Below the pieces are notes generated by a model, which made no database searches, was not told the DNA's origin, and was given only the letters and a program-made list of their open reading frames with translations. Of a stretch of DNA of 14,611 nt, positions 1,580-1,671 are shown piece by piece. The DNA is from Escherichia coli (GTDB lineage Bacteria; Pseudomonadota; Gammaproteobacteria; Enterobacterales; Enterobacteriaceae): NCBI RefSeq assembly GCF_003334255.1, contig NZ_QOWU01000079.1; one strand, written 5' to 3'. Each line of letters begins with the position of its first letter. Within the stretch, counting starts at the first letter, position 1. A program made the translations under genes and the position numbers.

Positions 1580-1621
1580 TTTGTTCTCCACGTTATATGC
1601 GCTGCACCGCTCTGAATTTTG

Positions 1622-1671
1622 ATTGCAGCAATCCAGCCCATTTAACATGGGATGATTGCTGCAATTTTTTT
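1622..1671 (+). terminator. nested hairpin (12-bp perfect outer stem ATTGCAGCAATC/GATTGCTGCAAT, inner 5-bp stem) followed by T7 on the + strand
   Basis: Seen directly in the sequence between the rdgC stop (1670-1672) and the HD gene start. Orientation is that of a + strand intrinsic terminator, i.e. antisense to the flanking genes; it could instead be a protein-binding dyad or an RNase III-type processing site. Confidence 0.4.

What the first reader, a model, noticed from the sequence alone, without database searches (positions are those of the whole stretch)
1580..1671. Long nested hairpin with T7 tract between rdgC and the HD hydrolase gene, oriented antisense to both
A 12-bp perfect inverted repeat enclosing a second 5-bp stem, followed by seven T on the + strand, fills most of the 90-bp gap in an otherwise tightly overlapped leftward operon. 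On the + strand it would terminate antisense transcription entering the early operon. On the mRNA strand it lacks a U-tract and looks more like a processing or stability element (compare lambda sib) or a protein-binding dyad.
Basis: seen in the sequence. Interest (0 to 1): 0.4.

Follow-up and report, generated by a model that had tools for sequence, protein, structure and literature searches.

The report
Conserved mRNA hairpin after phage rdgC
The hairpin is real, but comparison with related prophages shows it is a conserved fold of the leftward early messenger RNA placed just after the rdgC gene, so the run of seven T that makes it look like a terminator on the other strand is a feature of a few lineages only.

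Summary
There is a perfect 12-bp inverted repeat (1622-1633 / 1654-1665) around a 5-bp stem (1637-1641 / 1647-1651), followed by T7 (1665-1671). It lies in the 90-nt gap between rdgC and yfdR and folds at about -25 kcal/mol (z about -6).

The same element follows phage rdgC genes of two distant types in about 260 loci from Enterobacteriaceae prophages. In one lineage without rdgC it sits in the 5' leader of the early-left operon.

On the mRNA (- strand) sense:
- The 3' strand AUGGG-YUGGRUUGCUGCA is almost invariant.
- The 5' strand differs between lineages yet usually pairs with it, often through G.U pairs that work only in that sense.
- The hairpin is more stable in the mRNA sense in 43 of 48 variants.
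- The T tract is present only in the E. coli clade and one other lineage.

An A/U-rich spacer and a small hairpin with a (G/U)UGCAG loop (1599-1610) follow. That small hairpin belongs to a recurrent motif that precedes many gene starts in these phages.

Best reading: a structured intercistronic RNA element, acting in processing, stability or insulation of the next ribosome-binding site, which also marks a mosaic junction. The exact mechanism is inferred, not shown. The element has no Rfam match.

The parts
1670..2587 (-). rdgC coding sequence (305 aa, divergent phage type); stop codon TAA = 1672-1670
   Evidence: ORF list; RefSeq annotation of an identical chromosome, WP_000775327.1 'recombination-associated protein RdgC'
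1665..1671 (.). T7 on the + strand = A7 on the mRNA strand. It overlaps the stop codon and the last stem pair, and is specific to a few lineages
   Evidence: Sequence. Present in the E. coli clade, L166/L167/L171/L189 and L186/L349 only
1654..1665 (-). 5' strand of the outer stem on the mRNA (AUUGCAGCAAUC). This is the strand that varies between lineages
   Evidence: variation
1647..1651 (-). 5' half of the inner stem on the mRNA (CCCAU)
   Evidence: pairs 28-32/38-42 of alignment A1 are 98.5% paired
1642..1646 (-). Apical loop (GUUAA here). Sequence and length are free among relatives: GUCAA, UCUC, AAGC, GUCU, CUCGC, CGCA and others
1624..1641 (-). Nearly invariant 3' strand AUGGGCUGGAUUGCUGCA (AUGGGUUGGGUUGCUGCA elsewhere). 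It comprises the inner-stem 3' half (1637-1641), the 3-nt internal loop and most of the outer-stem 3' strand (1622-1633)
   Evidence: Conserved in unbiased samples of both rdgC types; invariant columns in A1
1611..1621 (-). A/U-rich single-stranded spacer CAAAAUUCAGA. Homology with other yfdR-bearing phages stops here (mosaic junction)
   Evidence: BLAST matches end at window 1618-1621 in about 3000 E. coli genomes and 49 phages; yfdQ-type leaders share AACCAAAAUUCAG
1599..1610 (-). Small hairpin GCG-GUGCAG-CGC, a member of the start-associated (G/U)UGCAG-loop hairpin motif
1583..1591 (-). Shine-Dalgarno region GUGGAGAAC of yfdR, followed by AAA and ATG 1579-1577
   Evidence: Sequence; the same (A/G)UGGAGAA follows most motif copies
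1043..1579 (-). yfdR (5'-deoxynucleotidase, HD family)

Best explanation
The hairpin is the E. coli-lineage version of a conserved stem-loop of the early-left (pL-type) messenger RNA of a group of temperate Enterobacteriaceae phages. It is read on the - strand of the window. It begins a few nucleotides after the rdgC stop codon. An A/U-rich single-stranded spacer follows, then a small hairpin with a (G/U)UGCAG loop, then the ribosome-binding site of the next gene.

Shown here: the fold is conserved on the mRNA sense. One strand is almost invariant and the other varies but mostly keeps pairing. The T tract is not conserved. The element sits exactly at a mosaic junction.

Inferred: it acts after transcription. 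The helix of about 19 bp with a small internal loop would serve as a double-strand-specific (RNase III-type) processing site, or as a 3' barrier to exonucleases after cleavage in the A/U spacer. Either way the fate of the rdgC message is uncoupled from that of the downstream genes, and the next ribosome-binding site is kept free of upstream sequence. Because the element is conserved between unrelated flanking genes, it probably also serves as a homology patch where gene modules are exchanged.

In the E. coli lineage the stem was lengthened to a perfect 12 bp, and the stop codon plus five A gives T7 on the other strand. Any termination of antisense transcripts there is a secondary trait of that lineage.
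For: 1. Linkage to rdgC. Every complete locus in an unbiased sample of the window-type rdgC (66-100% aa identity) carries the element after the stop codon. So does a second sample of the canonical-like rdgC type, which is 20-24% identical to the first.
2. In a lineage without rdgC the element lies in the 5' leader between the repressor gene and the first gene.
3. RNAfold predicts the hairpin in nearly all lineages despite different 5' strands.
4. The sense strand is more stable than the antisense strand in 43 of 48 distinct variants and less stable in 3. The difference is 5 to 12.5 kcal/mol in the lineages that rely on G.U pairs.
5. On alignment A1, 76.8% of cells are paired, against 27-43% when the partners are slid. 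Seven pairs show changes on both sides, and 0 of 500 shuffles reach the observed score. The E. coli lineage has a compensated U-A where the others have C-G or U.G.
6. Shuffling only the 5' flank gives a mean z of -2.5 over 18 lineages, with z at or below -3 in 7 of them.
7. One-sided changes in the invariant strand stay pair-compatible: U.G to U-A in L415/L397, and U-A to U.G in L444.
8. Homology of the yfdR module stops at 1618-1621, next to the hairpin.
9. The same 3' strand precedes at least six different downstream genes.
Against: - No experimental data exist: no cleavage, transcript-end or half-life measurements.
- The outer stem is not significantly better than shuffled flanks in four lineages (L100, L102, L086, L025), because the G/U-rich strand pairs promiscuously.
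- Pairing alone does not explain why the 3' strand is almost invariant. A sequence-specific partner (protein, RNA or DNA-level) is therefore still missing from the model.
- The helix is only 14-17 bp in most lineages, short for a classical RNase III site.
- In the rdgC-less lineage there is no upstream cistron to protect.
- The related loci are phylogenetically linked, so the counts are not independent events. The sets found by DNA pattern are biased towards an intact 3' strand.
Confidence: 0.5

Rival explanations
1. Intrinsic terminator on the + strand. The hairpin plus T7 stops rightward (antisense) transcription, either read-in from the integrase side or a short cis-antisense RNA against the yfdR start region (OOP-like).
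For: In the window the + strand RNA folds at -24.5 kcal/mol and is followed directly by U7. A-tracts in front of the 5' strand recur in the E. coli clade, in its relatives L166/L167/L171/L189, and independently in L186/L349. A weak extended -10-like site, TGTCATAAT, ends at 1542 on the + strand. It would give an RNA of about 120 nt ending at the hairpin.
Against: The T tract is missing in most lineages that keep the hairpin (Klebsiella D, B, C, L091, L102, L155, L111, L086), and L048 has the U run on the mRNA side. G.U pairs become C.A mismatches on this strand, so the antisense hairpin is weaker in 43 of 48 variants. No + strand gene is present, and no promoter-like site reaches 9 of 12 matches upstream. 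The weak -10 arises from yfdR codons and, by my reading of the L167 sequence, is not kept in that other T-tract lineage. The three base pairs next to the U tract are A-U.
Confidence: 0.15
2. A recombination linker only. The conserved 60-90 nt is a homology patch at which gene modules are swapped, like the PeSL cassettes of T4-type phages. The fold itself has no RNA-level function.
For: Mosaic breakpoints lie at the element. The same 3' strand and spacer join two rdgC types, or no rdgC at all, to at least six different downstream genes. PeSL cassettes provide a precedent for conserved intergenic stem-loop cassettes that mediate shuffling (PMC2839356).
Against: A pure homology patch does not require the variable 5' strand to keep pairing with the 3' strand, nor a strand bias in G.U pairs. 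It also does not explain a free loop sequence next to invariant stem halves. The two roles are not exclusive.
Confidence: 0.1
3. A translational switch or coupling device. The 3' half of the hairpin can pair instead with the yfdR leader and Shine-Dalgarno sequence. Ribosomes ending at the rdgC stop would open the hairpin and so change yfdR initiation.
For: For the window's own sequence the minimum-energy fold of the - strand RNA is not the hairpin. It is a 23-bp imperfect helix between 1652-1627 and 1611-1585 that covers GGAG (-30.7 kcal/mol, z -4.5). In lineages with an upstream gene, the 5' strand starts about 5 to 19 nt after the stop codon, or overlaps the last codons; at the short end that is within reach of a terminating ribosome.
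Against: The alternative helix is the best fold only in the loop variant GUUAA. The commoner E. coli variant GUCAA and all other lineages fold into the hairpin with a free Shine-Dalgarno sequence. Close variants carry changes that break the alternative helix (L012, L004). Leaders with quite different sequence follow the same hairpin (L048, L091, L145).
Confidence: 0.08
4. A DNA site for a dimeric protein. The invariant strand contains a 13-bp dyad (GGTTGC-T-GCAACC; GATTGC-T-GCAATC in E. coli). In the window it is present twice, 33 bp apart.
For: The arms are direct repeats of a near-palindrome. The dyad is invariant across many lineages. The E. coli version differs by a symmetric double change, G to A together with C to T. 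Invariance of one strand is what a protein site predicts.
Against: The commonest lineages (D and C) have an asymmetric version, GGTTGCTGCACCC. The second copy exists only in the E. coli lineage and L048. Conservation extends over the non-dyad part, AUGGGUUGG, and the inner hairpin. G.U-based pairing of the 5' strand has no meaning for duplex DNA. No candidate protein is linked to the site, and the putative repressor operators of this phage have a different spacing, TTGC-N7-GCAA.
Confidence: 0.07
5. A processive antitermination signal of the nut or put kind. The conserved linear stretch plus the small GC-rich hairpin would load a factor, or the RNA itself, onto RNA polymerase.
For: The element is single-copy and lies early in the pL-type operon. 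The small hairpin resembles a boxB in form, with a 5-bp GC stem and a purine-rich loop. A terminator-like hairpin with a U-rich tail lies in the pL leader at 2756-2709, which suggests the operon needs read-through.
Against: That terminator lies upstream of the element. There is no boxA match and no Arg-rich N-like ORF. There is no second copy in the rightward operon. The (G/U)UGCAG hairpins occur before many genes, not once per operon. put RNAs are two adjacent stem-loops of about 70 nt in total, found downstream of both early promoters (PMC9378689). Nothing in Rfam matches.
Confidence: 0.04

Closest known systems
Intercistronic RNase III processing hairpins of phage early mRNAs (T7 R1.1-type sites; the lambda N-leader site and sib). 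Comparison from my own knowledge, not tested here
   Same: A helix of about two turns, interrupted by a small internal loop, lying between cistrons of a phage early operon on the mRNA strand. The structure is conserved more than the sequence of one strand.
   Different: No cleavage data. The helix is 19-20 bp only in the E. coli lineage and 14-17 bp elsewhere. The internal loop is closed in some lineages (L186, L111). sib works together with an overlapping sense terminator and antiterminated read-through, and no such terminator is present here.
3' stabiliser stem-loops inside operons (REP between malE and malF and similar cases). Comparison from my own knowledge
   Same: A stable hairpin shortly after the stop codon of an upstream cistron, with no U tract on the mRNA strand. 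It could give the upstream message a longer life than the downstream part.
   Different: The sequence is unrelated. One strand is invariant, which a simple barrier does not need. The element is retained in a lineage that has no upstream cistron.
Rho-independent terminator
   Same: On the + strand of this window there is a strong hairpin followed at once by seven U.
   Different: No transcription unit ends there. The U tract is absent from most relatives, and the G.U pattern points to the other strand.
PeSL cassettes of T4-type phages (PMC2839356) and start-associated sequences (SAS/ESAS) of Cluster K mycobacteriophages (PMC3203893)
   Same: Short conserved non-coding cassettes with a stem-loop that end in a Shine-Dalgarno sequence and a start codon. 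They are repeated before many genes, sit at mosaic junctions, and their function is partly or wholly unknown.
   Different: PeSLs carry a sigma-70 promoter and a working terminator; no promoter is seen here. SAS is a 13-bp sequence and ESAS a 17-bp inverted repeat with a conserved sequence. Here the loop is conserved and the stem is free.
lambda nut (boxA-boxB) and HK022 put RNAs
   Same: Cis-acting RNA signals early in lambdoid early operons. The small hairpin looks like a boxB.
   Different: See the membership rows: no boxA, no N-like protein, no partner copy in the rightward operon, and a different architecture from put.

Membership tests
Rho-independent terminator (+ strand) | Stable stem-loop directly followed by a U-rich tract on the transcribed strand | tested here: met
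   -24.5 kcal/mol hairpin followed by U7. The three pairs next to the tract are A-U.
Rho-independent terminator (+ strand) | A transcription unit (gene or promoter) that reads into it | tested here: not met
   All genes from the integrase gene to rdgC are on the - strand. No + strand promoter-like site reaches threshold between positions 1 and 3433. Only a weak extended -10-like site ends at 1542.
Rho-independent terminator (+ strand) | U tract kept in homologues that keep the hairpin | tested here: not met
   Kept in the E. coli clade and its relatives and in L186/L349. Absent in groups B, C, D, L048, L091, L102, L155, L111 and L086.
RNase III processing site | Roughly two turns (about 20 bp) of double-stranded RNA on the transcript | tested here: inconclusive
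   Window: 12 + 5 bp stacked across a 2x3 internal loop. Other lineages have 12-17 pairs.
RNase III processing site | Cleavage by RNase III in vitro or rnc-dependent RNA ends in vivo | not testable with these tools
   No transcript-end data were found for any phage carrying the element.
lambda sib-type retroregulator | The site overlaps a sense-strand terminator, so that only antiterminated read-through transcripts form the RNase III substrate | tested here: not met
   On the mRNA strand the hairpin is followed by CAAAAUUCAGAG, with no U tract.
nut site (boxA + boxB with an N protein) | boxA-like sequence, one boxB hairpin per early operon (left and right), and an N-like Arg-rich protein | tested here: not met
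   No second copy in the window. No such ORF between the repressor gene and rdgC. The boxB-like hairpins occur before many genes. The boxA comparison was made by eye only.
put antiterminator RNA (HK022) | Two adjacent stem-loops, about 70 nt in all, downstream of both early promoters | tested here: not met
   Architecture as described in PMC9378689. Here there is a 44-nt hairpin, an 11-nt spacer and a 12-nt hairpin, in single copy, about 1.5 kb from the putative pL in the window. Sequence similarity to put was not tested.
Any curated RNA family (Rfam 15) | Covariance-model match | tested here: not met
   No hit at gathering thresholds in the window at this site. Only chance-level hits at E up to 10 in 1450-1800.
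Conserved structured mRNA element (operational definition) | Base pairing kept across lineages on one named strand, with a free loop and pair-compatible substitutions | tested here: met
   Caveats: the outer stem is weak in four lineages, and most changes are one-sided because the 3' strand hardly varies.

The most novel reading that the evidence does not exclude
The hairpin and the (G/U)UGCAG-loop hairpins are parts of one post-transcriptional system specific to this phage group. A dedicated reader (a phage or host RNA-binding protein, a nuclease, or the ribosome itself) would recognise the conserved loop in front of many early genes. The invariant strand of the large hairpin contains GCUGCA, the complement of UGCAGC, and would act as a cis-acting decoy or gate at the head of the early-left operon. 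This would be a regulon of start-associated RNA hairpins of a kind not described for lambdoid phages.
Probability: 0.12. Interest if true: 0.75.

Novelty: new variant of a known kind. Interest (0 to 1): 0.4.

Why it matters
If the fold is a processing or stability signal, it sets the ratio of RdgC to the downstream early proteins in a widespread group of Klebsiella, Enterobacter and E. coli prophages. RdgC is a modulator of RecA-dependent recombination (from my own knowledge). That makes it a simple, testable case of post-transcriptional control inside a lambdoid early operon, beyond the classical lambda examples.

The element also marks a precise mosaic junction. It therefore bears on the old question of whether conserved linker sequences guide module exchange in temperate phages.

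The companion motif may matter more. It is a hairpin with a conserved hexaloop and a free stem in front of many gene starts, and it is an uncharacterised signal that annotation pipelines ignore. It could also help to call true start codons in these phages.

Tried and rejected
- Rfam at gathering and permissive thresholds: nothing at the site.
- A second copy of the conserved strand or of the small hairpin elsewhere in the window, as a nutL/nutR-type pair: none beyond chance.
- The alternative Shine-Dalgarno-sequestering helix: it is the best fold only in the window's own loop variant.
- Pairing of the invariant strand with the loop of the small hairpin: always 5-6 bp possible, but the variable first loop base does not covary with its partner (by eye).
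- Complementarity to the C4 RNA of the same prophage: 3 mismatches in 14, at chance level.
- Internal promoters in either direction. For sigma-70, nothing reaches threshold. The following were checked by eye only. A sigma-54 reading (GG-N10-GC within GGGCTGGATTGCTGCA) has a poor -24 box. A sigma-32 reading (CTTAAAA-N15-TCCCATGT) exists only in the E. coli clade, with a spacer 2-3 bp too long.
- Reading (G/U)UG of the loop as the start codon of a mini-ORF: frame and stop are not conserved between lineages (by eye).
- Phage lambda has no start-associated copy of the loop motif.
- Literature searches for rdgC-linked RNA elements, yfdR antisense RNAs and lambdoid start-associated hairpins found nothing relevant. 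RyeG of CPS-53 lies elsewhere.
- The element is rare in E. coli (about 54 of 5426 complete genomes, none a standard laboratory strain in the rows shown), so no public transcript data could be tied to it.

Full report
**What is in the window**

The window is part of an E. coli prophage and is identical to a stretch of strain SW070917. The repressor gene lies at 3293-3985 on the - strand. The leftward early operon runs from there through rdgC (2587-1670) and yfdR (1579-1043) into a series of overlapping small genes.

The only sizeable gap in that operon is 1580-1669. It contains:
- a perfect 12-bp inverted repeat, 1622-1633 / 1654-1665;
- a nested 5-bp stem, 1637-1641 / 1647-1651;
- T7 at 1665-1671, whose last two bases are the complement of the rdgC stop codon.

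Either strand folds at about -25 kcal/mol. This is six standard deviations better than shuffled sequence.

**Where else the hairpin occurs**

yfdR and about 40 nt of its leader are present in about 3000 E. coli genomes and many phages. The similarity always stops at window 1618-1621, at the foot of the hairpin. The hairpin therefore travels with rdgC, not with yfdR.

I sampled rdgC loci in two ways that do not depend on the hairpin sequence:
- Eighty viral contigs encoding the window-type RdgC (66-100% identity): every complete locus has the hairpin right after the stop codon.
- Eighty contigs encoding a second, canonical-like RdgC type, only 20-24% identical to the first: the same result.

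A pattern scan added a lineage in which rdgC is absent. There the element lies in the 5' leader, between the repressor terminator and promoter region and the first gene.

In a one-genome-per-species collection, the real hits are all Enterobacteriaceae: Enterobacter, Kluyvera, Kosakonia, Raoultella and Citrobacter. I judged the remaining hits in unrelated taxa to be chance matches; my own estimate is that an 18-nt pattern should give a few tens of such hits in that collection. In E. coli the element is rare, about 54 of 5426 genomes.

**Which strand carries the structure**

Written in the mRNA sense, the 3' strand is almost invariant: AUGGGUUGGGUUGCUGCA, or AUGGGCUGGAUUGCUGCA in E. coli. The loop is free in sequence and length. 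The 5' strand differs widely between lineages: GCAGCAAUU, GCAGCAGCU, AGCGACUUAA, UAGUGGCCUG, GCAGCCC and others.

RNAfold still predicts the hairpin in nearly every lineage. Many of the pairs are G.U, which become C.A mismatches on the other strand. Accordingly:
- The sense hairpin is the more stable one in 43 of 48 distinct variants. It is more stable by 5-12.5 kcal/mol in the most diverged lineages.
- On a 26-sequence alignment, 76.8% of cells pair, against 27-43% for slid partners.
- In the E. coli lineage a G-to-A change in the conserved strand is matched by U on the other side.
- Rare changes in the conserved strand elsewhere remain pair-compatible.

Limits of this evidence:
- Because one strand hardly varies, most of it is one-sided.
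- The G/U-rich strand pairs easily with many sequences.
- In four lineages the outer stem is no better than with a shuffled flank.
- The loci are related by descent, so counts are not independent events.

The universal core is the inner hairpin plus the invariant strand. The perfect 12-bp stem is an E. coli-lineage extension, shared in part by L048.

**The T tract**

A run of A before the 5' strand (T on the + strand) is found in the E. coli clade and its relatives L166, L167, L171 and L189. These share the ...CTTAAAAAA stop context. It occurs independently in L186/L349. It is absent from the large Klebsiella group, from groups B and C, and from L091, L102, L155, L111 and L086. L048 has a U run on the mRNA side instead.

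No gene lies on the + strand upstream, and no convincing promoter does either. Termination of antisense transcripts is physically plausible in this window. It is not what has kept the element.

**What follows the hairpin**

After an A/U-rich spacer (CAAAAUUCAGA, 1621-1611) comes a small hairpin, GCG-GUGCAG-CGC (1610-1599). The Shine-Dalgarno sequence GUGGAGAAC and the yfdR start codon follow.

This small hairpin is one copy of a recurrent motif: a stem of any sequence, a loop (G/U)UGCAG, and then, a few nucleotides on, (A/G)UGGAGAA and a start codon.
- In the related loci there are 131 distinct contexts. Of these, 63% are followed by a ribosome-binding site and start codon within 40 nt. The figure is 7.4% for all hexaloop hairpins and 3 of 142 in the opposite orientation.
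- Among all 4095 hexamers, GTGCAG and TTGCAG, together with their reverse complements, take four of the top five ranks for being flanked by an inverted repeat. ATGCAG and CTGCAG are at background.
- The stems covary freely.
- Copies precede rdgC itself and genes of the rightward operon. In the window a copy at 9513-9526 precedes the KilA-N gene.
- Phage lambda has none.

yfdR genes that follow yfdQ instead of rdgC keep the spacer and the small hairpin. They have a different strong hairpin after the yfdQ stop codon.

**Interpretation**

The data show a conserved fold of the early-left mRNA placed at the 3' side of rdgC, at a mosaic junction. A single-stranded A/U stretch and a start-associated hairpin follow it.

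The most economical mechanism is post-transcriptional. The helix is either a target for a double-strand-specific nuclease, or the 3' protective hairpin left after a cut in the spacer. In both cases it also insulates the next ribosome-binding site. This step is inference.

The invariance of one strand is not explained by pairing and points to an unknown sequence-specific partner. That is why I keep the protein-site and linker readings alive, along with the more novel 'regulon' reading.

I considered and set aside the following: a switch that sequesters the yfdR Shine-Dalgarno sequence, nut- or put-type antitermination, internal promoters, a mini-ORF, and pairing with the prophage's C4 RNA. The calls are listed under Tried and rejected.

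**Comparison with known systems**

The element works most like the intercistronic hairpins of phage early mRNAs or operon-internal stabiliser stem-loops. As a junction cassette it resembles the PeSL elements of T4-type phages. The repeated loop motif recalls the start-associated sequences of Cluster K mycobacteriophages.

It is not a member of any curated RNA family. It fails defining features of sib, nut and put. As a terminator it meets the local shape test but fails the tests of context and conservation.

**Verdict**

This is a real and conserved feature of moderate interest. The terminator look is a lineage-specific by-product or add-on. The mechanism remains to be shown.

Noticed in passing
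window 1599-1610 (-), 9513-9526 (+), weak copy about 2612-2600 (-); many related loci, e.g. L086 4099-4118, 4190-4205, 7016-7031: A recurrent start-associated hairpin: a stem free in sequence, a conserved loop (G/U)UGCAG, then (A/G)UGGAGAA and a start codon. It precedes many different genes in both early operons of this phage group. It is strongly oriented and enriched, absent from lambda and not in Rfam.
   Followed up: partly
window 2756-2709 (-): A terminator-like structure on the mRNA strand inside the roughly 600-nt untranslated leader between the putative pL and rdgC. A 12-bp stem (GGCGGUACCAGU / GCUGGUACCGCU) is followed by CUUUUUAC, at -22.5 kcal/mol. The CGCUCUUUUUA stretch looks boxA-like. 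It suggests that early-left transcription is attenuated or needs read-through.
   Followed up: partly
window about 3236-3199 (-) and 3254-3271: Two 15-bp dyads, TTGCATATCTCGCAA and TTGCATAATGCGCAA (TTGC-N7-GCAA), lie just downstream of a hairpin at the end of the repressor gene that reads as a terminator on either strand. They are probably the left operators and promoter. A Klebsiella relative has TTGCG-N5-CGCAA at the same place.
   Followed up: no
window 5250-5326 and 5351-5438 (+): Rfam matches to isrK and to the C4 antisense RNA lie inside the ORF annotated in RefSeq as a Rha family regulatory protein (4890-6038). The 5' third of that ORF is therefore probably non-coding RNA rather than protein.
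   Followed up: no
window 12336-12541 (+): Full-length match to the sRNA family STnc100 (143 bits).
   Followed up: no
window 2587-1670 (-); loci L375-L454: Phage rdgC comes in two types only 20-24% identical: the window type, and a canonical-like type ending in GGEAKR. Both sit as first gene of the early-left operon, and both are followed by the same RNA element.
   Followed up: partly
L003 3375-3397 (E. coli K-12 CPS-53, yfdQ-yfdR spacer): Where yfdQ replaces rdgC, a different GC-rich hairpin (AAAUGCCCC-UGCG-GGGGCAUUU) follows the stop codon. The yfdR leader with its small hairpin is kept. A strong hairpin upstream of the yfdR leader thus seems to be the rule whichever gene comes first.
   Followed up: partly
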